The position numbers were made by a program, and so were the translations under genes. The notes below the pieces were generated by a model. The model made no database searches and was not told where the DNA came from. It was given only the letters and a program-made list of their open reading frames with translations. Positions 24,841 through 61,133 of a DNA stretch of 64,000 bases are shown here, one piece after another; position 1 is the stretch's first letter; each line of letters begins with the position of its first letter. This DNA comes from Amoebophrya sp. A120 (Eukaryota; Protista; Dinoflagellata), in contig CAJINV010000007.1 of NCBI GenBank assembly GCA_905178155.1, forward strand, positions 3,862,265 through 3,926,264, in the 5' to 3' direction.

Positions 24841-26384
24841 ATGGCGCAGCAAGTGCCGGAGCCTTCGTCCCCATCCGGTATGTGGACTCCGAAGGGATCC
24901 GGAAAAATGAGCCCGCCAGGTGGGGGCAGCAAGAGTCCACCACTCGGTGGGACATTCTCGCCGAGGAGCGACCGGAAACCGTTTATGAAGCCGACTTACA
25001 TCTACGACGACATTCGGGTGCCAGACGGCTACGCGCAGGGAAGCAACGAACACCCGCTGGAAACGTTCTGGACTTTATCACATGTGATGTGCAGAAGCAT
25101 CAAAATGTGACCACCTATCCAGCTGCTCCATCTGCAGATTGTTGCCATGCATGACAGGCGGATTGTTCTGCGTATTTCTTCTAGGTAGATGTTGTCTAGA
25201 TTGACGTAATCATTTTGTCACCTATGTATTCATCTCGCCATGCCCGTTGCATAGTACTGCCGTTGGATAGTACTGTACTGGCACTACCTAAGTCTTTGGC
25301 TGCTGGATGGTACTAAAACTCATTTAGCTTTTGTTCATAGCATACTGTTTTTGGTACGACCAGGGCGGTGCACGGAACAAGGCGAAGAAGAAGAAAAACA
25401 AGCGGGACCATAGTTTATCCCCGACTCTGCACGCGACGTCCTCGAGCGCCACCGCGGAAACAACAACGGGCAGCGAGAAACGCCTGTCCGCCGCGGAAAA
25501 GGAACAGCTAACGACCAAGGGCGAAGTCGAGTCGCCGGAGGATTCCGAAGAGTCCGTCCCGATTTCCCCAAAGACCTTGGGGGAGGAAAAGAACGACAAG
25601 GAGATGTTTTTGACGCAGTTGAAGGAGCTGTGCACCGTAGGAACCGTGGAGGAGTTCACGCGGTGTTTGGCGTACCTGAAAGGCCCGAACCAACTGCCGA
25701 AAAACAAAAACGTGTATTTGTTCCGGAAGGGGTTCATTCCCGCCTGGGAACACCACCCGGACGGGGGCTGCTGGATTATCCGAGTTGCCAAGGACTGGAC
25801 CGCGGTAGGATTTTTGTTTCTTCTCGTGACCCATTATATCAGTTCACCGCTCGCGTTTTTTTGGAAATTTTCATTGTTCCACATGAACATGCCGACGATG
25901 GATCACAAGTGCAAAAACTTTCGGTGAAATAATGTTGTGGTACACATGATGTACTACTTAGCATGATCCGCTAGAGACTAGCTGCAAATGCTTCCACTCG
26001 TCCTCTTCATCTCCTATATCACAACAACTACAGGTCGACGCGCTGAATAGCAAGAAGAAAAAGAACCCGAAGGTCGAGCCCAAGCTGCCCCCAGAACCCT
26101 CCAAGGTCGCGGAAAAAATGTGGATTCGGCTGCTGCTGTGCGCCATCGGGGAAGAGTGGAATTTGCCCGACGTCGTCGGAATCGTTCTGTCGACGCGCGG
26201 GGGCACGGACGCCCTGTCCGTGTGGAACAAAACGGCGGGTTTGAAGATGGTGGTCGGCGATCGACTGACGTACACCCTGGAACTCCCAGACACGACGCTG
26301 CTGCAGTACAAGGAACACAAAAAATCGCTCCAGGACTTGTCAACCTTTAGAAACGCGGAGGAGTTCGTATTTTTACCGCCGTGA
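24841..26384 (+). CDS. eIF4E-family cap-binding protein (3 exons)
   Basis: HPLETFWTFWYD, YLFRKGFIPAWE, GGCWII, WIRLLLCAIGE, LSVWN. Introns ~25075-25348 (non-canonical) and 25805-26033 (GT-AG). Confidence 0.9.
25076..25344. mobile_element. Highly decayed introner
   Basis: TATC...CATA ends. Removing the element plus 5 nt restores the conserved WTFWY motif. Flanks GACTT/CTGTT. Confidence 0.55.
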
Positions 26385-27160
26385 TTCTTGTAGGAACAAC
26401 CTAGGACAGCATCTGCGATTTTTCATGGTCGCAGGAGCGGGAGCCGGGTTTAAATTAGTAGAATATAATAAAATTCAAAATTGTGAAAAAAATATTTTTG
26501 ATTGATGCTGTTGCTGTCTAACTATCTATGGCACACCAGACGAATTCGAGTGCGAGTCTTGTGACAAAGATAATGACGCAAGCCGTTTTTACACGGACTG
26601 AACTTCTCCGGACGCGACGGACCAACCTCCGTCTTTGGCGATACTATCCAAAACACAGTTTTTCAATCCAGAATTCCATATGAAATTAGCACATCACCCG
26701 TTTTAGTCAACCCATCAGAGGTGTCAGCTCATTCATTGACAAAGAAAAAGAGAAACGCAAAAACTGCCACGAGGCAATTTCACTTCATCTGGATCTGTTC
26801 CCACCGTCGAAGAATTTGAACCGCGATCGCCTCTCTCCGTTCTTTTGTTGTTGCCTGTTCCTTTTTTTGCAACAGCCGCATGAAGAAGAAGTAAGCTGCA
26901 AAATTTTTTCAATCATGTAAGCCTAAGCATGGTACTCGTGGTGATCAGTATCGACGCAGCTAGAGATCACAAATTTCTATTATTGAGGTAAAGGCAAAAA
27001 CCTTATCCTTCGATAGGACGATTAGGACGAATTCCGTGAATATTGGTTTTCCGTTTATGGGAATATTTCTTGCGGTAAACGTTTCCGTGAATAGTTTGAA
27101 GCTGCCCTTTGATATTGCAATATTTTCGGTCTAATTTTTTGTCTCCCAGCAAATGGCACC

Positions 27161-28456
27161 ATGCCGAAGCTCCAAGGCGTACTAAAAAAGGCTGCGAAGA
27201 AAAACGCGCAGGAAAAAAGCTCGAGCAATTCGCAGGAAAAAAGCGTGAAAAAGCGGGAGCAGCGGGGGGCCTCGACAGGGAAAAGCAACTCCAACAAGCG
27301 AATTAAGCCTGCTACAAAGATCGCGATCGCGAGGAAGGAAATCGCGCAGCCGAAAGCCAAAGTGGCGAAGAATCCTCGCCTGCCAGCTAACAAGGCAACG
27401 AAAGCAGCTGCAACGGCATCGCTCAAGAAGAAAGCCAGTAAAAGGACCACGACGAGCGGATCATCACCGTCTCTGAAGACAAAAAAATCAAAGATGGCGA
27501 GCAGCAAAGATGAAGCGCGACCTGCCTCTTCAAGCACGGCCGCCGGTGACCGGCGAGCGCAAGCAGACCCGCCTTCTTCGTCTAGCGCCAATGCAGGAAC
27601 GAAGCAGCCCCTGCTTGGTGCAAAAATGATTCCAGAAACCGCAAGCGCGAAAAGAATTTTGCTTCTCACTGGGTCTCCCGGGGTCGGGAAATCCACGATG
27701 CTCCAAAACGTGGGTGCTGCACTCTCCACAAAGGGCTTCCAAGTTTTCGGCTTCTACTCTGCGGAAATGCGAGACGGTTCCGGCGGTCGGAATGGTTTCG
27801 AAATGATCTCCTTGACCAACCGTCGGAAGAAATGCTGCCTAGCAGACGTCGGCAGCGGGACCGCGACCGCTCCATTTGAAACTGGAAACTCTGCCGCGGC
27901 AGCTGCCAGTGCTTCTACTACTTCGGACCGAAAAATGTTTCCGAGAGTTGGGAAATACCGAGTCCATTTGCAAGAGTTCGAGGATTTCGCGATGGAATGC
28001 TTTGAGGAATTTTGGAACACTAAGGTCGTCAGAAGTGGTAAAAACAAGGGAACAAAATCTATTTCCAGTGGTGAGAAGGCGATTTTTCTTCTGGACGAAA
28101 TTGGCAAGATGGAATCCTTCTCAGACAAGTTTAACGAGCAAGTGCAGAAGCTCCTCTCTGCTGACAACGTGCTGCTCCTCGCGACCGTGAGCCAGAAGGG
28201 AACTGGGATTATGGAACAAACGAGAAGCTGTCCGGGTGCGCACCTGCACGTCTTGTCCAGAGAGAAGAGGGAACTCACAGCGCCGGTTTGCCAAAGCGCA
28301 ATCGTCGAGCACTTTGTGAATCTCGTAGGTGGTGGGGGTGGCGATAATTATAGTAGTTTTGCCGCCCTCGGAATGGACGTTGACGAGGAGCAAGCTAAAA
28401 AAGAACCTGCTGCTGCAGCAGGCCGCACGAAACGCTGGGGGAAAAAGGCAACATAG
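27161..28456 (+). CDS. NTPCR: NTPCR/THEP1-like nucleoside triphosphatase, intronless, with basic N-terminal extension
   Basis: LLTGSPGVGKST, GFYSAEMR, RNGF, RVGKYRV, LLDEIGKME, LLATV. Confidence 0.88.
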   Translation: MPKLQGVLKKAAKKNAQEKSSSNSQEKSVKKREQRGASTGKSNSNKRIKPATKIAIARKEIAQPKAKVAKNPRLPANKATKAAATASLKKKASKRTTTSGSSPSLKTKKSKMASSKDEARPASSSTAAGDRRAQADPPSSSSANAGTKQPLLGAKMIPETASAKRILLLTGSPGVGKSTMLQNVGAALSTKGFQVFGFYSAEMRDGSGGRNGFEMISLTNRRKKCCLADVGSGTATAPFETGNSAAAAASASTTSDRKMFPRVGKYRVHLQEFEDFAMECFEEFWNTKVVRSGKNKGTKSISSGEKAIFLLDEIGKMESFSDKFNEQVQKLLSADNVLLLATVSQKGTGIMEQTRSCPGAHLHVLSREKRELTAPVCQSAIVEHFVNLVGGGGGDNYSSFAALGMDVDEEQAKKEPAAAAGRTKRWGKKAT

Positions 28457-31781: not shown

Positions 31782-33834
31782 CGGAAATGCGTTTTTTTTA
31801 AAGCTTCGTTTGTCCTCTACTTCAGCTTCACGACTGGCACTTCCACTTCCGGTCGTGCGAATACTTGTCACGAGCGCGGCTCTTTGGCAAGTTCCTACAT
31901 GCATGTGCAACGGCAGCGAGCTTATGATTATGTTGTTTTTCATGAAATAGAAATAATTTTGTTTGCAGATTTTCAGTATATCTGAACTGCAACTGTAGAT
32001 ATCGACGAGCGGAAGTGAGGGTTAGTTCGTCGCGCTGAAGAGAACCGACAGACACGAAGCGTCTACTTTTTCCTCATCGATAGCCGAGTGCGGAGCTGAA
32101 TGGGGCAGACGCGAAATGGATTGAACCACCACCGTGGAACCAGAACAGGTTCCTTTTTGGACTCTTTTGAGGAACAAATCGGCTGCAAGAAGAAGTTATT
32201 ACGCTGTTGCTCTGCTCTTGTATCTGAAATGAACTGCTGCAAGATTTTAGAAGTATTAGACGAGTCGTCTTCGTCTCGATGTCACGACCGCCGTCATTGT
32301 AAGCAGGTATAACCGAAGGACGTCCGAGAGCAGATAGGTCCGGGGACTTTACATGTACCAGACAAAACAAACCTGCAGGTGGTCTCTTGTGCGGCACGCG
32401 GACAATCATCAATAGGAATACTTATTTAAATGCATTCGCAGATTTTTTCCGCCTAAAAAATAGAAAAATCAGAACACAGAACAAGAGCTTCACATAAGAA
32501 GTCGCGCCAGAAGAGCTCGATCTTGAGAAAGCTCAAAGCTGGCGTGAGGTCGACACGGGGCTACTAGTGCGAGCTGGTTTCAACAGGTCTCTGATGTTGT
32601 TAGATTAGATATCCATATCGTTTCAATAGAAAGAGAACTACACTATTTTTGCGTCGGAAAGTGCGCTGCTTGTCCTACACATTAATATACCAGCGGCACT
32701 TTACGTCGCTATCCTAATATGCTATCTATCGCTATATTATGGTTTCGTATAGAGGACGAAGAATTTATCTCTCGAGTAGTATCTATGTACTCATCTTCTT
32801 TTCTTGACTTTTTGCACATTCTGTATCCGTTGTATATGCTGACAAAGGAAAAAATGAAAAATGAGATCCCTTGAATTGTAACGTCTAACCAGTTGATAGC
32901 ACCTACCATGTGAGGCGAAGGAGAGGAACCTAGGAGCTGCTTGGTGATGATGTGATGTTCCCCGGCCTTTATTTTTTTACCAGGCACGCAAAATCAGAAC
33001 AATGATCCAGGCAGGTTCGGATTGAGAACGATGATCCAGGCAGGTTCGGATGTCTTCACCGGCAGGAACCTGAAGAGGACCAACTCTTTTGGCACACAAG
33101 AATCAACATCCCTCGTGCGAAAGTCATGGCGATGGAAAAATGTGAGTGTGCTGGCAAAATAGATACTAGTGCTGCGGTTATTACTTGCGCTTTTCTCCTT
33201 CTTCGTGCAGGACCGCCATTCCGGGTCCCTTGGTCTTGGTGCACAGAGCAGAATTGATTTCGCATGAAACGATGGAAGTTGATGATTGATCATCATCGAT
33301 CAGTCCGACTGAGTCGTGGAGTAGCTCCACCTTCGATTTCGTTTGCCGTCTCCTTTATGTCGATTTCACAAGCAGAAGATCAAGATCTCCGGTGCTTTTC
33401 AATATATCAAGAAGTTAGTCGTGGTGCAGCGAGCTCTCGATCACCCTCTAATGTATGATGAAGATGGTTCACCCTCATCTCACGTACACGTTGGAGATAG
33501 TTGCGCCGGCGTTCTGCCGATTCCAAGATCTTCTCGCGGTCGTAAACAAACCAAGCACTTCATTTTTGTTTATTGTGGTCGGTGTGCTGTCTCTGTCAAC
33601 ATCCCGAGCGTTCAAATTTTAAATCACCACCGTCAGGCTACACGTCCTTATCTCCTCGTATATTTATCGACTTCATCATTCCAAATTTTTGTTGCGTTTT
33701 GTTGTGGTCTACATCTAGTTCTAGTCTTGTCTATTACGTGGAGTATATGCCATCTAGTACGTAATTTTATTTTATACCATTGGCGTCCCTGGGGCCATCT
33801 ACGGTTGTGTTGTGAGGCCAGCACAACTTCTTGA

Positions 33835-36800
33835 ATGCTAGTACTCTCTTCTTCATCTTCCGAAAAGATCATGCGGCCGCACAGGAGCGGTTGGGCGACC
33901 ACTCACGCGTACCGCTTCCGCCCAAGCAGTAGGACGAGGACCAAGTCGCTCTCTCAGCACTTCGGAGGAGCAGGCTTATTTGTTGCGGTCCTTGGTGTTT
34001 GCGAGTTGCTACTTTTACTTTTTGCAAACGAGAACGTGTTCTTCACATTCACAAGTAAGTACTTTGCGCCTTCAGCCCCGACGTCGACAACCTCGTCCCT
34101 TCTCGGCGTCGGCTCATCTACTTTTTATTTGCCGTTGGGAGGTCAAGGTCTGAACATTTTCGCCCAGGCGGCTGCTCCTGCCGAAGGACGACCCGATAAT
34201 GCGGACGAGGATGATGAAAACCAAAACTACACTGCCAGCGCTGACAAAAAAGAAGAACGACCTCCCGGAGCGGCGGCCGCAACTGCAGCTCGTGCCACAG
34301 GAGGTGGTGGACCAGGAGTATCTACTTCTTGCCCGCCCCCCGCAGAAGAACAACTCCTGAAGCCCGGAGACTACGTCGAGATTCACGGTCTGACCGGAAC
34401 TAAACACGAGGTGTTGAACGGGAAAAAAGGCCTGATCATGTTCCCCGCTGAGCTTTTACTTGACACCGGCGACACCTTTCTGAAGAAGCTACTTCGTGAT
34501 CGGAAGCGTGAGGAGGTGGCGAGAGAAATACAGCAAACAGCTCAGACTCCGGAAAAATCGGGTTCTACCAGTTCGCGTGATCTTCTCCTCGGTGGTGCAG
34601 GTGCTCCAGCAGCATCAACATCATTTTCATCCTCTCTGCAACAACATCGGCCGTCCTTTCTACCAGAAGGGGTTTTTCCATCAACCTCTCTACCAGCCAC
34701 GGCTTCTGGTAGTTTCGAGCCGCGGAGCCGTCGTGGAGATGATGCGGAGAAAGACGAAAATACACCTTGTGCTGAATATCCTGTGTAAAAATGTATGACC
34801 GGGCAGTAGAAGTCTAGCGAGCCTGTGAGTCTAGGCTGAGGCTGGTCGGTCGGTATTTTATACAGACCCTAGCCCTTCGGCCATTGGTAGCCAGGACCTG
34901 AGAACGTTCCCCCAATTAAGAGACGGCAAGCCATTTCGCTTGTAAGATTCTATTTCCGTCTGTATCTCTATTATTCTCAGGTCCCAGGGAGTCACGCCCC
35001 TGCCATGGTAGTGAAGAGTATTATTGTCTGGCGAGACGGGGTTGAAATTAAACCCCGGCCAGACTTTATTTTCCGCCCCGGTGACCCGTTTCGGTCACTG
35101 ATTAGGGGCTTTATTTTATCTGGTGAGACAGGGTTGAGATTAAACCCTGGCCAGATGGTTATGTTGGTTTTGTCCGGTGAGACGGGGTTGAAATTAGACC
35201 CCGGCTGGACCTTTTATTGCGAGCCCTGACCCATTTCGGTCAGCGATTCTGGCTCCGCTTTTTCTGGTGAGACGGGGTTGGAATTATACCCCGGCCAGAC
35301 ATATTATTTTCCGCCCCGGTGACCCGTTTCGGTCACTGATTCCGGGCTTTGTTTTATCTGGTGAGACAGGGTTGAGATTAAACCCTGGCCAGATGTTTTA
35401 TTGAGATTGTCCGGTGAGACAGGGTTACGATGGAACCCTGGCCGGATGGTTTGACAGCTAGCCCTGACCCATTTCGGTCAGAGATTCTGGCTTTGCTTTG
35501 TCTGGTGAGGTGGGGTTGAAATTACACCCCGGCTGGACTTATGATTTTCCGCGGTCAATCTCAATGACCTTGGTTGTTTTTATCCTGACCTTTCTCGGCT
35601 GTTTGGCACTGGCGGTAAACGGGCTCCGAGCCCAATCCGTTACCCTTGCAGAGGGGGAGACTGGGATAAGAAAAGCCGGGGGCTTGTTGTATTCCGTTGG
35701 GGTTTTTGAGCTCCCATAGGGCTTTTTGTGTCTGGCCTTTGCCAATTTTACGTTGCGAGAAAGGTCACGGATAAAACGACCAAGGTCGGTGCTATTTAGC
35801 GTCTTTGGCGCCATTGCTTGCGCGCTGTTTTGAGGCTGCTGCGGATTTTCGTTATATCGCCTGCCTTGCAGGCTGAGGGAAACCTCCGGTCCCACATTAC
35901 GTAGCTCGCTGTGTTTTTTTTTTGGGCTTGGACTTATATTGCTTTCCCGCCTTCCAGGGCTCCGCGGCCTTTTCGATGGGGCATGTTGTCCCCCAAATTC
36001 ATCGCTGGGTCGCTTCGCTTCCTGCGGGTTCTTTGGGGTTGCTTCGGCGCGTGGCTCCTTCGGCGGTGGCGGGGTGCCCCATCGCGGGCGCTCATGCCCT
36101 TCCGGTGAAGACGGCTTCCCACTGGAAGCCTACGATCATCCAAAGGATGATCTATCTCTGGCTGATTCTGTATAAAATGTATGACCGGGCAGTAGAAGTC
36201 TAGCGAGCCTGTGAGTCTAGGCTGAGGCTGGTCGGTCGGTATTTTATACAGACCCTAGCCCTTCGGCCATTGGTAGCCAGGACCTGAGAACGTTCCCCCA
36301 ATTAAGAGACGGCAAGCCATTTCGCTTGTGAGATTTGCCCACCCACCCGCCCTGGTGATTTTCTGTTGTCAGAGCATAGGTCATGAGGCTTCGAGCCGCT
36401 TCGCTTTTCGCGGGGCTGGACAGAGGCCTACGACGTCTTCGCGTCGGTTGTGGCGGGGTGCCCCATCGCGGGCGCTCATGCCCTTCCGGTGAAGACGGCT
36501 TCCCACTGGAAGCCTACGATCATCCAAAGGATGATCTATCTCTGGCTGAATCTGTATAAAATGAACAGAACGACGACGTCCCCGCGGATCCATATATAAA
36601 GATGCGAACTCCTTCAACTTCTTCTTTGCAGCACAATTCAACAAGTTTTGGCTGTTGCGCATGACAAACTTAGGGTCGCATTGTGGTCGTGTTTGACTAG
36701 TAGGGCAGCCACACAGCATTGCGATCATGATCATCTTACTCGGATTCTACCAGCATTGCGTCACTAGATTCAAAAGCATATACAACTGGAAAACGTTTCT

Positions 36801-39224
36801 CCAGGTGCTGGGGTTGGCAAATGTTTTAGCTGCCGTTGTGTAAATATATATGTTATGACGAACAATTGTATTAAGATTAGGGTGAGCAGGCGTTTCTACA
36901 CAGGATAAGAGCGCCGGAAAATCATCTGCGTCACGACCCAGTTCGGCTCAGGTTCAGCGATGGGCAGTCACCACACTGCTGACGGCGGCGGAGTATTCCG
37001 CCGGACGGAAGGACGACGACTCCACTGCGCTGGACAGGGGAGCGTGGAAAAACCTCGCAGTCCGGGCTGACAACCTGAGGCTCTTACCGCAGGCGGATTT
37101 TTTTCCGGGCGGCGAACGCGACTCGGAGTCCGAGCCCGACGTTGGCGCCAGACGCGGAAGTAGTGGTAGAAGCAGCGGTCAACGTGGCAATAGTATTTCT
37201 GGCTCCCCCTCCTTCTCCGTTCTCGCCTCCTCGCAGTGGCGTCAGCTTGGCCCGCTGCTGTCCGAGGTCACAAGCGAACAGAAAACCACGAACAGTTTCG
37301 TGTTTAAGCGGCGCGGCCACTTGCACCAGACCTCGGACTACCTCACCGGGCAAAAGCGATCTGGCACACCGATGTGCGGGTTTGTGTTAGAGGACAAAAC
37401 GTCGCGGAGTGAGACACAGATCGTCCGGAAGGCGAAGATTTACTGGTTCCGCGAACAGAAGGTAAGTGAGGAAGACCTGGACATCAAGATCTTCGGAGAA
37501 ACCGGCAGCTCCACATTCGACATGAGCACCGGGAAGATCACGCGACACAGGTACCTCGCCGATAGTTGGCGGCAGAAAAAAGACTTACGGATGATCGAGG
37601 CCAAGAAAGTGCTTGCCCCCCTGGAGGAGATCCAGCGCGCGATCGCGAACGTGGGTCTGCTGAAGAAACAGGAAAAGGAGGACGGCGAGCGATTGAAGAA
37701 GGAAATGCATGCGTTGCGCATCGCGGAAATGGCAAACACCGACCAGGAGAAAGCGGCTGCCGTCGCCTTCGCAGCGGCCCTCCCGGGCGCGGGACAGGAG
37801 CTGAGCCGTTTTCTTCCAAGAAATCAGAAGGAAATCCTATTCAAGAAATTTGAAGACAAGGTCTTCCACGAGAGTAACTACGGCTTTAACGACTCCTACT
37901 ACCGATTTGTCAAACGGCACGGCCGGGTGCTATGGTGCGATGAAATTAAGTATGCCCCCAAGGACCTAAATTTTGTTTGCATCGTAAGGGAGCTGCTAAA
38001 CCATGCGGCCGAGCGAAAGATACATGTCGCACTCTCATGTATGAAACAGAGGCATATGTGCTTCAACAAGTCTGTCGAGAGTAACAAATGGCTTTTTGTG
38101 CTACCGCTGACGGTGCCTTGTAAGTTTGTTGTGCATCTTCACGGAACTTGTGGTCCACCACACGGACTTGCACGTCCTGTCTTGCATGACAGATTTGACG
38201 TTCTGGAGGATGTTGGGGCCGTACTTTTACATTCTATACGTCATGGTAGAAAAGCACGACTTCGACCGGGGCAAAATCCAGTACTACGAGTACATTTATG
38301 ACACTGCGGAATACGCGGACTTCGATATTGTCTCGTTCCAGGAAGAAGAAGACGGGGCGCCGTTTTATGCATCACAAAGAAATGTGTCTGGTTTTGGAAC
38401 GAAGGATGTCGTCACGCGAAGTCCTCTCGAGCACAAAAATATCAGTGCTGCATGAACGGCAGAACTTGCCAAGTGCCTGTCAGGAAACAGGTGGATTTCT
38501 CAGGCGGGATAGGCATGCGGAAGGCCTCGCAAGATCCGCGCTGCTTGTTCTGTGTGCATTATTCCAGAGCATGTGTGTGGTCCGTGAGATGCATGTACAA
38601 ATCTTGCGCTCTTCCAGACCCGGACACATTTGCACTGGATACGTTTCGCGTCAACATCAAACTTCTCCTCGGGCCGGCGACTGAGGTATTTGACTAACGC
38701 GTCGACGTCAGTCAACAAGAAATACTACAAATACTTGATGAATAAACTTGAGGAAAAAGTTCTTAGAGAAACAACTTGAGGAATAAACATACATCAAACT
38801 TTTCGTACGCGAAGAAAAACATGCCGGGAACAACGAGATGATAACTAATACGATACCGTCCTCCGTGCAGCTGGTGCTGGCTCTGGCAGGACGTGCACGA
38901 TCACGACCACATCGTTCACAAGCTTGACACGCTTCCGTTCCGCAATTTTTTTGAACGCGTAAAATAAAGAAAAAGTACTACTAACTACACTAGGTGTATC
39001 GTCGACCCTTTCCGTGGAGGAAAGACGACAAACCGGAAGGAAAAGATGTCCCTGCCTGGGTACCGTTTTCGGATCACCTGCCCGGGGAGACACAGCCCAG
39101 CGGACTGCGGCCCCCGAAATACGAAGAGCAAGAGGAGACGGTCCTGCTGGTGAAGGAACGCGAGCTGGTACGGAGTCCTACGGCACCCTTTCCGGCGGTA
39201 ATTCCTGCTATGCCACGCGGATGA
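33835..39224 (+). CDS. Hypothetical multi-exon protein interrupted by a 2.1-kb composite intron
   Basis: Frame of ORF 33835 continues at 36910 and into ORF 37300 when 34777-36907 plus 5 nt is removed. Motif halves PGDYVEIHGL..LNGKKG and RWAV..LAVRADNL lie on either side. Further introner at 38366-38641 and GT-AG intron 38686-38993. Confidence 0.65.
34788..36563 (+). mobile_element. Non-autonomous tyrosine-recombinase retroelement-like insertion with split direct repeats (A1-B1A2-B2)
   Basis: A1 34788-34943 equals A2 36174-36329. B1 36066-36179 equals B2 36450-36563 (1 mismatch). AAAATG occurs at both ends and at the B1/A2 junction. No RT or YR ORF. Confidence 0.8.
35027..35538 (+). repeat. 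Array of 7 hairpin units TCYGGTGAGACRGGGTT...CCCYGGCYRGA plus 4 TGACCCRTTTCGGTCA hairpins
   Basis: Units start at 35027, 35119, 35173, 35263, 35357, 35410 and 35501. Second hairpin at about 35082, 35227, 35320 and 35465. Confidence 0.9.
38366..38641. mobile_element. Introner family C, TSD CGTTT
   Basis: TATGC...AAATGTGTCTGGTTTTGGAA / TTCCAGACCCGGACACATTTGCACTGGATA. Removal gives GAPFRVNIK. Confidence 0.88.
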
Positions 39225-51223: not shown

Positions 51224-52951
51224 ATGTCGACCCAGTACGGCGACCTTTTCGGGTCGCAGGCCGAAATGGCCAACTTTGCCTATGGGGAGCAGGGCGACCG
51301 AGAAATGATCCGACACGACCGCACCGGGAAGGTTGGTAGGCTGCTGAAAGACCGAGAGCGCATGGCGGCGGCAGCGGAAATCGCGAAGAGCGAAGTGGAA
51401 GCAGGCAAAATGAAGAGAAGAAAGCTGCAGATGGGAAGTACTAGATAGGATAATGAAAGTTTGTCGTATTCCTCATGTCGACCCTGCTTTTACTGGTGGT
51501 TGTGCCGATAGTACGTTGTAGGAGATAAACACATGATTGCAATAAATTTCAGCACGTCGCATCCATACTTTGAAAAATTTATTCATGTTGACATACTAGT
51601 GTTCCTTCTACCTGCTGTTTCGCGTCTGCGTTTCACGGCGTAGATGCTATACAAGAACTCTTCGGCATGATAGCAAAACATGAAAACATAAACAGCCGAG
51701 GGCGCTGCGTTTGACACTTCCGCGGCCGACGTTCTGGAGGAGGAATTTGCGAAGCAGACCGTCGGGCTGACAAGCAAGGAGGAGTTTCTCGAAAAGCGGA
51801 AGAACATCGACGAAATGATCGAGAAGGCGCAGAAGGCGAAAAACCAGGAAAAAGTGGAGAAGAAAATGATTGTGCAGAAGGTAAAGAAAGCCGCGCTCAG
51901 CTTTATCGACGACGAAGATGAGGAGGAGGAGGAGGACGACGAGTCAGAGGAGAATAGAATCACCAGCGGAAAGAACGTAAAGCCAGGAGCTGCTGGTGCG
52001 ACATCATCTTCATCTGCGGTAGCTTCTTCTTCTTCTTCTGCGAAAAAAGACAACAACTCGCCGCCCCCGTTTGAAGCCGCCGAAAGTTACGGCGGGTCCA
52101 GACCCGGCTACGTTTTCAAGCTCGGCGAACTGGGTTTGGGTTACTACGCGGATAGATTACCACCGGTTGGAGGAGGATCCTCGCCTGGAGGTAAAGATAC
52201 AGCTGGGGCGGCAACTTCGAAGGAGCAGACGTTTTGGCGCACGAAAAAGAACCCGACGGTGGACACTTCGTTCCTTCGGGACGAAGCGCGCGAGAAGAAC
52301 CTGGAGCAGCGAAAGAAGCAACTCGCGCTGGAGTACCAGCAGCAGCAGGAGAAGGTGAAGAGAGAACTGGTGGACATTGTGTACAGCTACTGGGACGGCA
52401 GCGGGCACCGGCGGTCACTCCAGATCGAGCAGGGTGCCACGATCGGGCAGTTTCTGAAGGTAGCAAGGCTCCAGCTGCTCGAAGACTTCGCCGCCCTACG
52501 CCACGTCGCGTCCGACGAGCTGCTGTATGTGAAGGAGGATCTGATCCTGCCCCACAAGGTCAGCTTCTACGAACTGATCCGCGACCAGGTCCGGGGGAAA
52601 TCGGGCCCGCTGTTCAGCTTCGACGCGACGGAGACAGTAACCGAGGCCGCCGACATTCGCGTGCAGCGCAACGACTCGCACGCGGGCAAAATCGTGCAGC
52701 GGGCCTGGTACGAGCAAAACAAGCACGTGTTTCCCCAGAAGCGGTGGGAAATCTACGACCCGCAGGTGTCGTACGGCACCTACTCGGTGAAGGGCAACGC
52801 CAACAAGTACAAGCGGCTCCACCAGGACTTGGTCGCGCCAAAGAGTTCCTCGGTGATCGGATCGGGGGCCGGCATTTTCTCGGGCGGGGGAACAGACTCT
52901 GCCGCGAACATGAATCCAAAAAGCAGCGACGCCGCCAGGATGACCAACTGA
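51224..52951 (+). CDS. XAP5: FAM50/XAP5 family nuclear protein (2 exons)
   Basis: QTVGL, KNPTVDTSFL, YSYWDGSGHRR, YVKEDLILPH, GKSGPLF, SHAGK, WYEQNKHVFP..RWEIYDP. Confidence 0.93.
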
Positions 52952-53574
52952 GAGGAAAAATATTCAAGTTGGAACTCTTCGTTGCTCTTCTTTGTTTTAT
53001 ATATACATCTTTTAGTCAAGTATACGACCGACACACCTCTTGTTCGAGTTATCGAAAAACAAAAAGGCTTGCTGACAGTGCCAGTGGCGCGGCAGCGGCT
53101 CGCATGCTAGCGTGAAAGTGTCGAGTGCCGGCCGCGACCTCAACCTCCCGACGTGGTCACCCGTGTTCCGTATCAACAAATGCCAATGCGAAAGAATCAG
53201 AGTGTAGCATTGTGGTCTTTGTCGGTAAGTCATTATGCAGCATATACTTACTTTGGTCTCACGGTGTGTCCGGCATACTTGTCGGCGGGTTTAAAAACCA
53301 CAGGAGAAATAAACCTCGGTCATCCAAAATGGAAAAACAAAAAGGGGACTGAAGATCCAGCTCTTTGTTGTGCTCTTCAACTTCCACCATAAGACGTGGT
53401 AAAAGAACCTGTTTCATCGTTTCCGTTTTGTTTTTGTTCTTTGCTTTTGCGTGCAGATGTTTGTAGTTTAAATGTGAGAAGTGTAAATGACTTTGCCGTC
53501 TTGTGTTTCTGTTTGCTGGTTTCTAACACACATTGTTAAATATCCTTTTTCAACATCGAGATCAATAACAGCCC

Positions 53575-56500
53575 TTGACCGAAGGCGATCTATCAGTACC
53601 GCGAGAAGAAAAGACAAGGATTGACGAGCTCGTCTATAGCATGTGGTTTCCCAAGAAAGACGGAAGCGGAGAAGAAAGCAGCAGCGGCCGGTGTTTCAGT
53701 AGCACTAGCACTGCTACGCCGCCTTTCGAGCTGGAGCGCACGAATAAGGTGCTGGTGCAGCTGCGCCAGCATCGGAATTTCGCACTCGATAAACAAAACG
53801 GCGCAAGGTCGACTAGCCAAAGTTGTAGGAGAACAAGGAGGTGGCCCGAGCTGCCCAACAACGATACTACGGGAACATTAACACCATCAAAAAAGGACGA
53901 GATCGAGCACACTATTAAGGCTCGCTGGTACGACAATCCTGGCAGCATTTGCGGTGCCGGAGGACCAAACCCAAGCGTGCGAAGCAGGAGCTGCTTATTC
54001 GGTCACGTCGAAGATCCTGCTGAGGAAACAAAAAAGACGAGGTCGATAACGATGTTGCGGGAATCGCAATCGGATGCGCAACATATCTCGTTCATCCGTT
54101 CATCTTGCGGTGGACAATGCGCTGATGATCCTTGTTTCGACTATGCCGCCAGCTGTGCGACCGACGAAGCCTCTATTACAGCAACGGGATCCCGCTCTTC
54201 CTGCTCGTCCTCGAGGTCCACTCGCGATAAAAGAACTTGTGGAGATGAAGCGCCAGCAGGAAAGAGGGCAGCTGCTGTACGACCACCAACTGAAAAGAGG
54301 AAAGAACATGACAGAACCGCTGGTGGAACAAGTTCACTCTCTGTGATGAATTCAAATATTGTGTCAGAATCAACTTCGAGACGCCTGAACACGGGTAGGT
54401 CCGCCACCTCGAGAAAACGAAAACGAAAAACCAAAACAATAGAGCCGGACGACTTTAGTAATACTTATAGCTGCGAAGAAGAGCACTGTGACTTTTCTAA
54501 AGGCTCTCCTGGTGCCGTTAGGCATTTTCGAAAAGAGATGGAGCCACCGCTTATGCAAAGTGGACACGCTGCTCCGTTGGCCGACCTCGTCAGTGGCAGG
54601 CCCCATAGTACCAGTGCGGCAAGAATTGCGTATCAGCCGTCGAAAAGGAAAACAGCAAAAGTAGCAATTTACAGTTTCCGGCTGCTCACCCCGATCTGTA
54701 ACTCAATCGCCATGTTTCTCATCCTTCTTCTTCGCATATTCTCATTTCTGCGAGACATTTTAGCACGACACTGTGGGTTTTTTGGAGGGTCTTCAACTGC
54801 TTCGACGTCGAAGGGAACGCTCCACCCTAGCGCCCTTGCGGCCATTGCTCCGAGTGGAGGTCGACTCAGAAGGACCACAGCTACTAGTACCCATGCACGA
54901 GGAAAAGCTGGCTGGAGCTGCTCTAGAAGTAGCGCTACTGCGTCGAAGAACGCAGAAAATGTTGACCTCCACACAACTACTTCGGTCCTGCCGGGCAAGA
55001 CGAGGATTAAAAATCAACATGCGAGCGCTATTAACAAGGCGCGTTCAGCACATAGGAACCGAAGCACTGCGGCAGGAGGGACATGTTGGATGAGGCCGCC
55101 TAGCAGCAAGAAGACTACATTGACTTCAAGAAAAACTACAAGAACCCACTGGCTGCTATCTTCAAGAGCGGCTTTCACGAAAACCCTTTTCTACCAGCTG
55201 CAGCTCCTTCCCCTCCTCACTTTCGCGTGGCACTACATCCCGGGCTCGAACGAGTCCAATATTTTTTACACCTTTCAAGAATTCTACACAGACGCGCAGT
55301 ACGGGCCGGACTTCGGGTACTACAGCAAAGGCAGAATCCTGCAGGGCGAGTTTTTCAACTCCTACACCACCTTCCCGATGGGCCTGTCCCCCATGTTCGG
55401 GAACCTGATCGCCGACCGGCTCTACGCGACCTGGCTCGCGATGGCCAAGCCACCAAAATTCGACATCTTCGAATTCGGTGGGGGCACGGGCGTCCTGGCC
55501 CGCGACATTCTGTTGCGGATCGAGGATCGCTACCCCATGATGGTACCCGCCACGAAGTACACCCTGGGGGAGCGCGCGGCGGGCCTCCGCCGGCAGCAGA
55601 AGAAGACCATCAAGGCCGCCAACCTGACCCACTCGGACCAGATGTTCCAGGTGCGGGAAGCGGACGCGCGGGAGGCCGCGCGGTTGAAGCAGCCGGGCGA
55701 CAAGTTCGTGGGCGCGGTGATCTCGAACGAGCTCCTGGACGAGTTTGACCCCGTGAAGCTGCGACTCATTTGGGAAACCGGCAAGCCGCCCAACCCCTCC
55801 GAGGTCCGCAGCTGCCGGACCTGGCGCGAGGTCTACGTCATGCACCGCGTGGACAAATCCCTTCTTTTGAATAGCAACTGGCAGCGGGAAGCGTCCGCGA
55901 TCGTGTGTGCCTACCTGGATGACCCCTGGATTGCGCGGCTGATCGCCAAACAGTTCGCGAACGAGCGGCGGTGCTACCCCTACGCGGTGTGCTGCGTGCC
56001 CTTATTGCTGGCGTTGAATAAGCTGCTGCACTATGACCACCTGTTTCTGGAACGGTTGGAGTACCGGAACGTGAACTTGCTGATGGAAGAATACGAAAAG
56101 GAGGTGGCATATGGAAGCGTCAGAATCGAAATCGTCAAAGTTGAAATAGTTTGTCATGCATAAAATGCAACCCACAAAGTGCCTGTCTTGCAGAGTAGGC
56201 AAGGGAGGCAGACCGTAAGCCTGTTGCGGGGTAGAAATAGAGCTGCTAAAGTAGCATGACAAAAGGCATACTCCTTACCCAAACCGCATTACAAACTGGA
56301 TTTCGGTTCTACCCAAATTTGTCATGCGCCACTTGAAAACTAGGCGCGAACTGGTATCCGTTTTATGCATGGTAAACTATTTCAACTTTGACGATTCCGA
56401 TCCTGACACTCCCACATGGCAGACCCGCGTGTCTTGGTCACGAAAGAGCAGTATCGAATGATCCGCCGGGCCCATTTGCACGATTACCAGGTGGAGGAGG

Positions 56501-59500
56501 GACTGCTCACCTCTGACAAAATTGCCACGGATCAGGTCGAATTAATTTTTGACATGAAGAATTTGCTCACTCCTTTGCCGCGCAAGGGGCGGGGTCCGAA
56601 GACAAGTATTATGATCTACGTCTTCTTGTTCACAACGCACCATCGAGAGGACCACGTACAAGATGCGCAAAAATTCTAGGATCGAGGCGCCGTGGTCGTG
56701 CAAGATCTTCTGCAAAAATGAATGCTTTGAACAATACGAAATATTACATCAAAACAGGTATCCATGCTTCTGACGGAAGAGCGGTGCGCCGAACTGACAG
56801 CGTTTTTCGCGCGCCACGCGCAGCGGTTCACCCGGGCCGCGGAGCGCCGCGACGCAATCGACGGTACCACTCCGCTGAACGACATTTCGTCCTCTTCGTT
56901 CCTTAAGTGGGTGGTCCGTCCCGGCGAGGAGCAGTTTGCGCAGGAAGCCAGCAAACTGTTGGACCAGGGCATCATGATCGCGATTGACTACGGTGCGGAT
57001 TTTGAGGCCCTGGCTTGGCTGCAGATATCAAATGTGAAAATGTCTGGGTCTGGAAGAATGCAAGATTTGTGATGCAGGTTTTCCATGACCCATGAGGTCT
57101 GGAATGCGAGACCCAGCATGACAGATTCTTTGAGATCTCTATCATGCCTCTCGTGCTTGGTCAAAAGCGGACAGCTTTTGGCACTCACGCAACACAGATT
57201 TTTGCATCATTTAGGTTTAGCATGACAAGTTCTAATCTTCCAGACCCAGACATTTTTGCAGTTGATAGCAGATCGTGAAGCCCAATTACGAGGGGATTCA
57301 CATCATGGATGCCCGGTACGGCTATCAAATGTAAAAATGTCTGGGTCTGGAAGAGTGTAGACTTGTCATGCAGATTTTCCATGACCCATGAGGTCTGGAA
57401 TGCGGGACTTAGCATGACAGACTCTGCGAGGCCTCTGCCATGCCTATTCTGCATGAGAAACTCCGTTCCAACTTGGTCAAAAGTGGACAGCTTTTGGCAC
57501 TCATGCAACACAGATTTTTGCATGCTTCAGATTTACCATGACAAGTTGCAATCTTCCAGACCCAGACATTTTTGCAATTCATAACGGCAATTTCTGCACC
57601 AACAAGGGTGAGCTGCAGTGTCCCGGCATGCACGACATCACAACAAACGTGGACTTCACCAATATATGAAAGTGCACAAGAACTCCCCTTCATCCGCATC
57701 CCCCTATATTTGTATCAATGCAAAATACCTAACTCACAGCAACAGCTTGCTCGTAAGGACTACTTGCAAGACAATGATAAATTCTGGAGCCTCATCAAAC
57801 AGTGCAGTACTACAATGCGCACGAAGATTTGTTGTCATCCGGAAGCCCCTTTCTGCTGTTGCTTGTGGTGATGCTGTAGCTGATGCGTTTTAAGCGCGCA
57901 CCTAGGGGGAGGTGTGCACACGGATACAATTTCGCCGAGGCTGCGAAGGAAAAAAACTTCGAGCTCGTGTCCTACGCGCCCATGATCGAGCTGGAACGGT
58001 TATCACACAGAAAAAACAAGCTAGTGTGTGTGTGTGGCATATTTGTATTGCTACTGATGCAAAAAGATACAGCACTAAAACTTCTATACGTATACTAGTA
58101 CAACACACAGGATCAAATCTGCGATGTTTATCTTGGGCCAGCCCATAGCAACAGGCTGCTTGAAGTATAAATATGCAAGACTCGTCCTGACAGATGATCT
58201 TTTCAACATCGTACTACTCCTGCGTAGTTGCAAAATCTCAACATCCTAGTTTTTTTCTCCGGGATGGCGTTCCTTTGGCTTCGGTGCGCACGAAGAGTCG
58301 CTCTTTCCGCATGTGATCGAGCAGGCCGGCGGAATCAGAAGCGCCGGCGTCTGGGGCTGGTACTCCACCAAAAACACCGAACCCTGGGCCAGCTTCAAGC
58401 TGCTGATCATGCAGAAGCAAGGTAGTGCGGTGCCGGCAGCTGGGAGTTCTACACTTGGTGGTCCAGGAACGACGAGACCAGCAGACGCGGAGCCCATGCT
58501 GAAAATGAACCCGTTTCATGGTACGTGTACGTCTCTAGTAGATCTTTCGAGGCCGCTCTTCGTCAAGAACTACACAAGTCGTGTTGATGGCTTGAGTGAT
58601 GATGATGGCACTTGTTCACGACGGCATCTCTAACCGTGCGGCACATGATAACGCTCACGACGAAAGCGGCTGCTAGTGCTAGAGTGAGACGCAAGGAGAT
58701 GAACATCATCAGCACCGTATCGAACAAAAAAGTGTTAACGTTACGGCTTCGGCGATTTTTAGAATAAATTTTTTTATTTTGCCGCTCAGTCGCTTTCTTT
58801 TCATGTTAAAATCAACACTTTTCATGATACTAGCTACCGCGGGGCGCTGTTGTAGCGTAATCAGTTTGAGCTAGCTAGTGCACAAAGTATTCCATTCCGC
58901 ACCCGAGTCCGGCGTAACCTCCGGAGGAAGACCATGGGCGCCGCGTCTCTGACTGTTTTGGCATGATATGGTGGTGATTCTGGCGACCTTTCGCCTTCAA
59001 GTCTGTCGCGCAAGGTCTGCGTCATGTGTCGGCATATGAGTCTACGCGACAATCCCCCGAAAGGTCCGCGCAACTCCCCACCATATCGCCCGCTTAGAAC
59101 TGTATAGATTCGCTGCGTTTCCAGTCATTGCGTTGTAGCTTTTGAGCCATCTCGCCAAGTTCTTCCCATGAGGCAGAAAAGCTGTCATTTCGAGGATGAG
59201 GAAAATTGGCAAAATTCGGGCACCAAATTGCCCAAATTCTGCAGTCACCCAGAAAACCGCTAACACTTTTTAGACAGGGCGCTATGATCGACCCAGCCTG
59301 CCAAAAGCAGGCTTTTTTGTATGAAAACGCCAAAAAATGACCGTTAACACTTTTTAGACGGGGCGCTATGGTCGATTTATCCTCCCCAGAGCCCGTGCTC
59401 CTTGGCCTGCAGGGTTCTGGACAAAGTAAGTCGATCATAGCATGCTGTCTAAAAAGTGTTAACGGTTTTTCTGGGTGACTGCGAAATTTGGCCTCAAATT

Positions 59501-61133
59501 GATGGCAAATCATGGATTTTTTCAGCGGAATTCCCTATGACCCCAAAAAACCGCTAACACTTTTTAGACAGCGCGCTATGGTCGATTCTGCCTCCCCAAA
59601 GCAGGCCCATCCCCAGTGTCGCTGGCGGCGACGGGGATGGTGGCAGCTCGAGATCATCTCTCAACCACATTGCTTGCAGTAGCTGCCGTCCACGAAGCGT
59701 CCCAAAACAGCTGAAAGGCAGGCTCCGCCGACGCCGAGCTGTTGTGGAGGCGCTGCGACCGGGTCCAGGAGCCGACGCGCAGGGGAAGGCTCCTCATGGA
59801 GCGGCCCCGGTAGGCGAAGTTCCGCGTCGTCAGACCTTGTGCACTAGCTAACTCAAACATAGTTAGCTACTTCAGAGGCCCGCAATAGCTAAAAGAGTGA
59901 GCGGGCCCCTTTATGTATTCAGATAACGCCGGCAGGGAACCAACAAAAAATTTTTAATGCAAAAAATCCAAAACCGTAACGGAAAACATCATCAGCACCG
60001 CCGCAAAGTTTTGTCGTTCCAAATTTAGGTATGGCTCAGTTTCCGCTCCTCCGTGCCCGAGACGAGATCGATAACTGTATGGAGGAGGTGAGTATCAATC
60101 GCAAGTAGAAATATGGCTGGGTCTTGAAGATTGCGAGAATTGACGTGCTAGTTGTCTGGCACGACCCTGAGCTCTGTATTTTTGCGTCGCTACGAAGAGC
60201 TCGTCTCGTCTGTCATGCAGAAACAGAGTTTCTGTTTCTCACACACGCGAAATACACATCAACACAGAGCCCGCGCGAAAGAATCTGTCAGGTTTCGCTG
60301 TGCATTGCAGGAGACTGGGCCCATTATTCAGTGACATGCACCATCATCCCAACTTTCGCTTTCCAGACCCAGACATATTTGCAGTGGATAACGATGCTTC
60401 CCTCCCTGGCCGGCGCCATCCTGCGGGAGTCGAAGCTGAAGCTGAATTCGGTGGAACCCTGGGCGACGGCGAGTATATTGGCGCGTGTGAATCCGGATCT
60501 TGTCTACGACCAGGAACTGGTAACTAATGTAATTCTTGCATAAAACTTTTATGAATATGAAGTCTTTTTTGAAGCATCTCAGACGATGATGTTCTTGACG
60601 ATCACGATGATGATGATAGTGATACATCGGGCACCAAGTTGTAGAAGTATTCGCTTATTCATTGCCGTTTTATGCTACAAGTACAACTAGTGGTAGTGTA
60701 TCAGGTTCAGCATAAACAAAAAATGCACCAGCTGCAAGGCAGTGAGTATGTAACTCCTACTTTGCTCGAACTTGTTGCACAACAGGAGCGGCAGCGGGCC
60801 ATCATGAACGAGTACCACCTGTCCATCTTGCTGCTCGATTATGCAACCCATTTGTCGCAAAACCAGTGCCCCATTCAGTGGGACGAAGCTTCCATTCGCG
60901 ACATTGCAGAGGCGCGGTTGCTGAAGCAAGTGTTCGGCGAGGAGGCCCTGGAGCGGGCACTGAAGTACTACGTACAGGTGAATAACATGACCGTCGTGAA
61001 ACCGTCCTACGTCTCCCAATTTACCCCGGTGGGCTGCATGCTGCGGAAGGGCCTCCTCGGGTATTGCGGGCATAATGAGGTACTGAACGAGGCCTATGTG
61101 GAGGACTTCGACTTGGGGCACATGCTGATGTGA
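53575..61133 (+). CDS. MidA/NDUFAF7-like SAM-dependent methyltransferase with long extensions, multi-exon
   Basis: YGPDFGYYS, YTTFP..SPMFG, EFGGGTGVLARDIL, SNELLD, IDYG, PGMHDITTNVDF. GT-AG introns 56536-56757, 58521-60028 and 60520-60785 plus six introners. True start and inclusion of the 60029-61133 exons are inferred. Confidence 0.75.
56110..56416. mobile_element. Introner with ~55-bp TIR, TSD TGGCA
   Basis: GTCAGAATCGAAATCGTCAAAGTTGAAATAGTTT / AAACTATTTCAACTTTGACGATTCCGATCCTGAC. Confidence 0.92.
57026..57267. mobile_element. Introner family C, TSD GCAGA
   Basis: TATCAAATGTGAAAATGTCTGGGTCTGGAAGA ... TCTTCCAGACCCAGACATTTTTGCAGTTGATA. Confidence 0.93.
57323..57583. mobile_element. Introner family C, TSD ACGGC
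   Basis: Same TIR and a closely related body to 57026-57267. Removal gives DARYGNFC. Confidence 0.93.
57665..57926. mobile_element. Decayed introner
   Basis: TATGAAAGTGCACA ... TGTGCACACGGATA. Flanks CAATA/CAATT. Removal gives VDFTNFAE. Confidence 0.75.
58001..58266. mobile_element. Decayed introner
   Basis: TATCACACAGAAAAAAC ... GTTTTTTTCTCCGGGATG. Flanks ACGGT/GCGTT. Removal gives LERSFGF. Confidence 0.6.
58718..59984. mobile_element. 1.27-kb intronic insertion with family E-like left TIR and 16-bp flanking direct repeat
   Basis: AACATCATCAGCACCG at 58702-58717 and 59985-60000. Starts TATCGAACAAAAAAGTGTTAACGTTACGG. Four internal CCGYTAACACTTTTTTAGAC..GCTATG.TCGA copies, one of them inverted. 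Confidence 0.75.
60093..60390. mobile_element. Decayed introner family C
   Basis: TATCAAT...AAATATGGCTGGGTCTTGAA / TTCCAGACCCAGACATATTTGCAGTGGATA. Flanks GTGAG/ACGAT. Confidence 0.75.

What the first reader, a model, noticed from the sequence alone, without database searches (positions are those of the whole stretch)
34777..36907. Retroelement integrated inside an introner TIR that mimics its own attachment site
Seen: the insertion point is within the left TIR (TATCCTGTGTAAAAATG) of a family D introner, with relatives at 16023 and 17291. The element's B|A junction reads CTGTATAAAATG and the target reads CTGTGTAAAAATG. The host gene frame resumes after the right TIR. Inference: the recombinase may preferentially target this introner TIR, using a multi-copy spliced-out element as a safe harbour (a parasite of a parasite). 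The outer 17 bp of the TIR stay intact, so the 2.1-kb composite could still be removed.
Basis: partly seen in the sequence, partly recalled or inferred. Interest (0 to 1): 0.82.

Follow-up and report, generated by a model that had tools for sequence, protein, structure and literature searches.

The report
Retroelement hidden inside a spliced intron
In a marine parasite, a 1.8-kb non-coding mobile element, likely a recombinase-type retroelement, sits in one end of a hairpin-ended intron, and the whole 2.1-kb block is missing to the base from likely-RNA sequences, but other copies lie outside such ends, so it likely landed there by chance rather than by aiming.

Summary
The anatomy is real. A 1,770-nt non-coding element with split direct repeats (A1...B1A2-spacer-B2, 6-nt core AAAATG at both ends and at the B|A junction) sits in the left 17-nt TIR of an Amoebophrya A120-type introner. 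The predicted splice is confirmed: contigs of two likely-RNA runs (one sample) join 34775 to 36912 in frame, and the deposited A120 protein reads across the same joint.

The targeting idea fails its own test. In two DNA runs only this copy has the TIR before A, and 0 of 5 other readable left flanks is a TIR. About 8% of AAAATG sites in the window lie in TIRs anyway. Matching a short core is the known tyrosine-recombinase rule; likeness beyond the core within the TIR is not significant (423/3000).

What remains is a passive safe harbour and a natural experiment: a 2.1-kb intron with no target duplication, still cut 1 base before and 4 after its TAT...ATA arms. The scan noted that cut rule, introner-targeting LINEs and a spliced recombinase retrotransposon before, on other DNA of this genome (unchecked notes). 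No helper element was found; no whole genome was available.

The parts
33835..34775 (+). host exon upstream of the composite intron
   Evidence: ORF; covered by X3/X4 contigs with 0 differences over 33800-34775; first 314 residues of P0001
34776..36911 (+). composite non-canonical intron, 2,136 nt, ends AT..AG, cut 1 nt before the left TIR and 4 nt after the right TIR
   Evidence: joint in X3 and X4 with no positional ambiguity; P0001
34777..34793 (+). left TIR of the introner (first 11 nt introner-only, last 6 nt shared with the element core)
34788..34949 (+). repeat A1, beginning with the AAAATG core; holds an inverted copy of the 12-nt junction sequence at 34855-34866
34950..36065 (+). non-coding interior, about 5 copies in the genome by contig depth
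   Evidence: no Pfam hit at cut-off in 5 overlapping ORFs; no Rfam hit at gathering score; depth 135 vs 27.5
35018..35552 (+). array of 7 imperfect hairpin repeats inside the interior
36066..36179 (+). repeat B1, ending in the AAAATG core
36160..36262 (+). B1|A2 junction (predicted attachment site); predicted long hairpin whose 12-bp base joins the end of B to an inverted copy inside A
   Evidence: z -4.78, 0 of 200 shuffles; window chosen after seeing the repeat
36174..36335 (+). repeat A2
36336..36449 (+). 114-nt spacer between A2 and B2
   Evidence: not covered by X1 contigs over 36336-36417, covered at low depth in X4
36450..36563 (+). repeat B2, right end of the element
   Evidence: the single-copy DNA contig starts at 36534, 30 nt inside the end
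36564..36907 (+). rest of the introner: 61 nt unlike the family, then family body and right TIR (36891-36907)
   Evidence: about 30 other X1 contigs match the core 36632-36671
36912..37929 (+). host exon downstream

Best explanation
A non-coding element with split direct repeats, likely a non-autonomous tyrosine-recombinase retroelement that likely needs only a short AAAATG-type core to insert, sits in the left arm of a likely old introner, likely by chance, and the whole 2,136-nt block is missing to the base from likely-RNA contigs of the host gene. Shown: the repeat layout, the core at both ends, about 5 near-identical copies by depth, the precise in-frame joint, and other copies with non-TIR left flanks. 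Inferred: a helper element supplies reverse transcriptase and recombinase; the B|A junction is rebuilt as the attachment site; recombination with a genomic core regenerates the core at both ends, which left a 17-nt arm that still pairs with the right arm; the host cuts 1 base before and 4 after the paired arms whatever lies between; this copy survived selection because it is spliced out.
For: Layout A1-B1-A2-B2 with 1 mismatch per pair, as described for Ngaro, PAT and VIPER (passages). Contig depths: interior 4.9 copies, A core 10.5 copies; the B contig depth 217.9 fits 5 elements with two B each (216 expected; 138 with one), while the A contig (162.6) lies between the models. Joint 34775-36912 in X3 and X4, absent from DNA run X1. 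P0001 crosses it. Neighbour intron 37930-38242 is cut with the same -1/+4 offsets and also has a decayed duplication, 2 of 5. Single-copy depth over the TIR in X1 and X2. 0 of 5 other readable left flanks is a TIR. 6 of 79 AAAATG sites outside the element lie in TIR ends, so at least one TIR hit among 6 copies has chance about 0.37. Core-matching integration is the published model for DIRS1 and Cryptons (passages). In the predicted fold of the whole intron the outer 11 bases of both arms pair.
Against: The site is the most attachment-like of 80 AAAATG sites in the window (score 18, next 14) and 9 of 3000 random 24-mers reach that score, though the excess comes from a 7-nt match lying mostly in the host exon. 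Not all copies' flanks were seen: a three-contig blend at 34789 cannot be resolved, and it shows an 11-nt stretch like another TIR family about 17-27 nt upstream. At least two of the five readable flanks belong to relatives about 90% identical, and four were read from likely-RNA contigs. No reverse transcriptase or recombinase was found in the element or in 20 long ORFs of the window. The RNA evidence is one sample, 'RNA' is the tool's guess, and the deposited gene model is not independent of RNA-seq. X1 contigs do not cover the spacer.
Confidence: 0.7

Rival explanations
1. The recombinase prefers introner arms, using them as a safe harbour.
For: One copy does sit at the TIR's A-run, and it is spliced out. 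The site ranks first of 80 for likeness to the attachment arm. A120 introner arms carry TAT-N7-AAA by rule (PMC7789003 section 11), so they supply many cores. Unchecked scan notes report LINEs that target introners in this genome.
Against: 0 of 5 other readable left flanks is a TIR; no second contig aligns through the TIR in X1 or X2. TIR-only likeness 423 of 3000. The strict form (all copies in TIRs) is excluded.
Confidence: 0.12
2. Not a retroelement: two Crypton-like DNA units, a long A-interior-B and a short A-spacer-B, lie in tandem because one inserted at the core regenerated by the other.
For: No reverse transcriptase seen. An X4 contig has a non-B flank, then A, then the first 2 spacer bases, which suggests a solo A-spacer unit (record 20). 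Cryptons recombine a terminal donor motif with a near-identical target.
Against: A B|A junction contig with the other B variant exists in X1, so the junction is not private to this copy. B depth fits two per interior. Solo A-spacer-B units are what repeat-repeat recombination gives, as for SIRE and Cafeteria solo AB.
Confidence: 0.1
3. The intron is a chimera (compatible with the best explanation): a deletion or replacement joined the left arm of one introner to the body of another and removed the matching target duplication.
For: Duplication 0 of 5. The 61 nt right of B2 do not continue the family's TIR extension and read as a short S/T-rich frame.
Against: The neighbour intron also has a decayed duplication (2 of 5), the body is only loosely like its family member, and both arms belong to one family, so plain age suffices. 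No orthologue was found to compare (1 hit among 7991 scored candidates, longer proteins only).
Confidence: 0.2
4. Assembly artefact: the composite or its repeats were mis-joined.
For: No laid contig spans the whole element; the spacer is uncovered in X1.
Against: Single-copy DNA contigs run from unique sequence into A1 (33800-34816) and from B2 into unique sequence (36534-38400) with 0 differences; the RNA joint brackets exactly this stretch.
Confidence: 0.03

Closest known systems
VIPER and its non-autonomous SIRE (Trypanosoma; PMC6681497, passages)
   Same: A1...B1-A2-B2 repeats of similar size (A 173, B 219 bp in T. cruzi); SIRE is A + short unique stretch + B, like the right 390 nt here
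   Different: VIPER copies encode Gag, YR and RT/RH; this element has a non-coding hairpin array; no sequence relationship was tested
Ngaro retrotransposons of Cafeteria burkhardae nested in virophages (PMC8547959, passages)
   Same: split direct repeats, solo AB units, nesting in another mobile element (4 of 20 sites in virophage TIRs)
   Different: there 82-91% of two types sit in the host element, a real preference; here none was found; those are about 6 kb and coding
TOC1 of Chlamydomonas (PAT group; structure recalled, not verified: searches gave listings only)
   Same: as recalled: non-autonomous, split repeats with a short unique stretch before the last repeat, internal tandem repeats
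   Different: larger; no link to introner arms known to me
Introner elements of Amoebophrya sp. A120 (PMC7789003 sections 10-11 and passages; PMC12130899 passages)
   Same: TAT-N7-AAA inverted ends, non-GT-AG removal, inside coding sequence
   Different: 2,136 nt against a mean of 240 nt for non-canonical introns; no direct repeat; carries a nested element; the sections read call the splice position variable, whereas both introns located here share one offset
Tx1 non-LTR elements targeting Tx1D transposons (PMC6719617, passage)
   Different: true targeting by an endonuclease; not shown here

Membership tests
Split-direct-repeat YR retroelements (Ngaro/PAT/VIPER) | A1-[interior]-B1-A2-B2 repeat order | tested here: met
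   a 114-nt spacer separates A2 and B2
Split-direct-repeat YR retroelements (Ngaro/PAT/VIPER) | short core shared by junction and target, present at both ends, no other duplication | tested here: met
   AAAATG at 34788, 36174, 36558; one right flank in X4 keeps only part of it
Split-direct-repeat YR retroelements (Ngaro/PAT/VIPER) | gag, RT/RH and YR genes (autonomous members) | tested here: not met
   so at most a non-autonomous derivative, and it cannot be assigned to Ngaro, PAT or VIPER
Split-direct-repeat YR retroelements (Ngaro/PAT/VIPER) | a helper with the same A and B repeats | not testable with these tools
   no genome held; X3/X4 contigs share 35975 onwards into or near B but differ upstream, a lead only
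Split-direct-repeat YR retroelements (Ngaro/PAT/VIPER) | dispersed copies | tested here: met
   about 5 near-identical copies plus relatives about 90% identical with other flanks
Amoebophrya A120 introner | 8-20 nt inverted repeat starting TAT, 7 nt, then AAA | tested here: met
   left arm fits fully, right arm has one change in the A-run; 15 of 17 match
Amoebophrya A120 introner | 3-5 nt direct repeat at the borders | tested here: not met
   0 of 5 in the register used by the window's other introners; it is filed as a decayed, introner-derived intron, not a textbook member
Amoebophrya A120 introner | repeated body | tested here: met
Amoebophrya A120 introner | removed from the transcript | tested here: met
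   (one likely-RNA sample; deposited model)
Elements that target another element (Tx1/Tx1D type) | most copies at one position of the host element | tested here: not met
   0 of 5 other readable flanks; single-copy depth over the TIR

The most novel reading that the evidence does not exclude
The element's B|A junction folds into a long hairpin whose 12-bp base rebuilds a double-stranded attachment site on single-stranded cDNA, so it integrates as a folded single strand; that site resembles introner arms enough to bias insertion towards them, where the host's fixed-offset removal hides kilobases of cargo.
Probability: 0.1. Interest if true: 0.72.

Novelty: new member of a known kind. Interest (0 to 1): 0.38.

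Why it matters
How Amoebophrya removes its non-GT-AG introns is unresolved (PMC7789003; U1 was not found). This locus is a clean natural test. With no target duplication the cut is unambiguous, and it falls at -1/+4 although the arms are 2.1 kb apart, the sequence next to the left arm was replaced, and a competing local partner for the left arm exists. That points to the outer 11-17 paired bases as the signal, and gives a ready minigene design. It also shows that introners shelter later insertions passively. The stronger claim, a recombinase aimed at introner ends, would have been more surprising but is not supported.

Tried and rejected
No whole genome was held, so flanks came only from two lays of public contigs. 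Metagenome scans: 0 matches for the A start, 1 match for a B motif whose flanks are unrelated, taken as chance; viral contigs 0. Raw-read RNA run X14 laid 0 reads: no test. No RNA holder on record was listed; X3-X6 are guessed RNA. Rfam: 2 hits, both far below gathering score, so no ribozyme. Pfam on 7 ORFs in or overlapping the element and 2 host ORFs: nothing at cut-off; 20 of the window's 43 long ORFs scanned, no RT or YR. Two X1 contigs loose at 34776 in the first lay looked like further TIR insertions; the second lay showed no contig but this copy's across the TIR, so they are read as other introners of the family. The spacer's lack of X1 cover is no evidence either way. By-sequence look-ups of scan notes found no look-alike; none near. 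The supplement of PMC7789003 (1 file, text only, figures not seen) has no DIRS, Ngaro, recombinase or VIPER; its Fig. S4 and S19-S25 may bear on this. Supplements of PMC12130899 were not opened. Literature searches (listings) showed no paper on a YR element in an Amoebophrya introner arm; subscription journals are mostly outside the library.
Full report
Setting. The window is full of TAT...ATA inverted-repeat inserts with 5-bp flanking duplications. The host protein's only hit is a 796-aa protein named by its source as from Amoebophrya sp. A120, 100% identical over the query (7991 candidates scored, longer proteins only). These inserts are the published introners of that strain (PMC7789003: passages, sections 10 and 11). 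No whole genome was held.

Observation. It holds. The left TIR (34777-34793) and right TIR (36891-36907) match at 15 of 17. Between them lies a 1,770-nt insert: A1 (34788-34949), a non-coding interior with 7 hairpin repeats, B1 (36066-36179), A2 (36174-36335), a 114-nt spacer and B2 (36450-36563). Each repeat pair differs at one base. A begins and B ends with AAAATG, so the core stands at both ends and at the B1|A2 junction. The remainder, 36625-36907, aligns to the introner at 17291 (z 16.6).

Is it spliced? Yes, as far as contigs show. In X3 and X4 (likely RNA, one sample) one contig each joins 34775 to 36912, skipping 2,136 nt with no ambiguity of position, and the same contigs skip 37930-38242. 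DNA run X1 runs from unique sequence into both ends of the element with 0 differences. The joint is in frame and P0001 reads straight across it; that model is not independent of RNA-seq. Both introns are cut 1 base before TAT and 4 after ATA, and both lack an intact duplication (0 and 2 of 5). I noted this offset before reading the scan's notes, several of which report the same rule elsewhere in this genome (unchecked). In the predicted fold of the whole intron the outer 11 bases of the arms pair; as duplexes the left arm binds the right arm at -18.2 kcal/mol and a local partner inside A1 at -10.5.

Copy number. With single-copy depth 27.5 in X1, the interior gives 4.9 copies and the A core 10.5. 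The B contig (217.9) fits five elements with two B each (216), not one (138); the A contig (162.6) falls between models. These are rough, since contig depth is a mean. Relatives with 4-6 differences in about 50 bases also exist. This copy has several private changes against the majority, so it is recent but not brand new.

Is the TIR targeted? Laid on 34750-34840, X1 (19 records) and X2 (14) show only this copy's depth over 34778-34785. Other left flanks: X1 has 2 contigs loose at 34787, 3 at 34789, and the B|A junction at 34788. Four flanks are printed singly from likely-RNA runs (at 34787, 34789, 36173, 36175) and none has TAT in TIR register. A fifth follows from the two-contig blend at 34787: where the blend differs from the known flank the letter must be the other contig's, and those letters fit the TIR at 1 of 5 adjacent positions (assuming the known flank is one of the two). 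So 0 of 5. The three-contig blend cannot be split. Both tables were cut (35 loose ends and 155 pieces not shown, 17 pieces), so flanks of some copies were not seen. Background: 6 of 79 AAAATG sites outside the element are in TIR ends, 14 inside introners; one TIR hit among 6 copies has chance about 0.37. Two right flanks in X4 show no TIR interior that I could recognise.

Is the mimicry more than a core? The site is the best of 80 in the window for likeness to the left arm of the junction, with 9 of 3000 random 24-mers as good; but the 11 TIR bases alone are matched by 423 of 3000. The excess is a 7-nt match, GCTGAAT, mostly in the host exon, and the score was devised after seeing the site. 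A short identical donor and target sequence is the published model for DIRS1 (PMC3266345, PMC7192593, passages) and was observed for Cryptons (bioRxiv 2022.05.23.493040, passages). So the resemblance is mostly what any such insertion shows.

Mechanism. Most likely (0.7): a helper-dependent tyrosine-recombinase retroelement rebuilds its B|A junction, recombines with a genomic AAAATG-type core, and here hit the A-run that ends introner arms. The core is regenerated on both sides, so the arm still pairs, the host still cuts at -1/+4, and the insertion survives. Layout, copies, joint and non-TIR flanks are shown; the helper, the enzyme, the intermediate and the role of pairing are inferred. Unchecked scan notes report coding YR retrotransposons in this genome; whether they share A and B is untested. 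One oddity: the junction folds into a long hairpin whose 12-bp base joins the end of B to an inverted copy 60 nt into A (z -4.78, 0 of 200 shuffles). DIRS-1 makes single-stranded cDNA, so a folded attachment site is conceivable, but the window was chosen after the fact and no covariation could be tested.

Comparison. It works like a non-autonomous Ngaro/PAT/VIPER element; the right 390 nt mirror SIRE (PMC6681497, passages). It cannot be assigned to a superfamily without coding sequence (PMC4157794, PMC3783388, passages). Nesting of Ngaros in another element is published, with real preference (PMC8547959), as is Tx1 in Tx1D (PMC6719617). Retroelement-related introners in A120 are published (PMC12130899, passages). 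The likeness to TOC1 is recalled, not checked.

Verdict. Observation confirmed; splicing prediction confirmed; targeting not supported. New member of a known kind, with some value as a natural test of the A120 intron code. Interest 0.38.

Noticed in passing
window 37930-38242: Second intron of the same gene, ends CT..TC, weak TIR, duplication 2 of 5, cut at the same -1/+4 offsets in X3 and X4.
   Followed up: yes
window 38366-38641: Third introner of the gene with a perfect 5-bp duplication; an X4 contig leaves at 38365 and continues beyond it, as in P0001.
   Followed up: partly
window 35975-36165: X3 and X4 contigs share this 3' part of the element but have a different sequence upstream of 35975: possibly the end of a helper or sister element.
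   Followed up: no
window 36175-36337: An X4 contig has a non-B flank, then A, then the start of the spacer: a likely solo A-spacer-B unit.
   Followed up: partly
window 34770-34776: The bases where the left target duplication should be match the end of repeat B (GCTGAAT) rather than the right flank; chance or templated replacement, unexplained.
   Followed up: partly
window 36564-36624: 61 nt right of B2 are unlike the family's TIR extension and read as a short S/T-rich frame; possible exon remnant or older insertion.
   Followed up: partly
window 34789 (blend): The blend of three relatives' left flanks contains an 11-nt stretch like the TIR at 38641, 17-27 nt upstream of the junction; cannot be resolved into single flanks.
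   Followed up: no
window 35552-35597 and 35756-35801: 46-nt inverted repeat (76%) inside the element's interior.
   Followed up: no
window 58831-59891: About 1-kb element with 58-nt inverted ends and internal 55-65 nt direct and inverted repeats, unlike the TAT...ATA introners.
   Followed up: no
window 9261-9512, 57026-57267, 57323-57583: An introner family whose arms end in AAAATG at positions 12-17: ready-made, unoccupied cores for this element.
   Followed up: yes
window 25328-25924, 27113-28453, 51692-52948, 53569-56160: Pfam hits: eIF4E, NTPase_1, XAP5, Methyltransf_28.
   Followed up: no
window 34357-34440 and 37030-37090: The host protein has what looks like a small beta-barrel motif split by a long low-complexity linker that contains the intron (motif recalled; Pfam gave no hit).
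   Followed up: no
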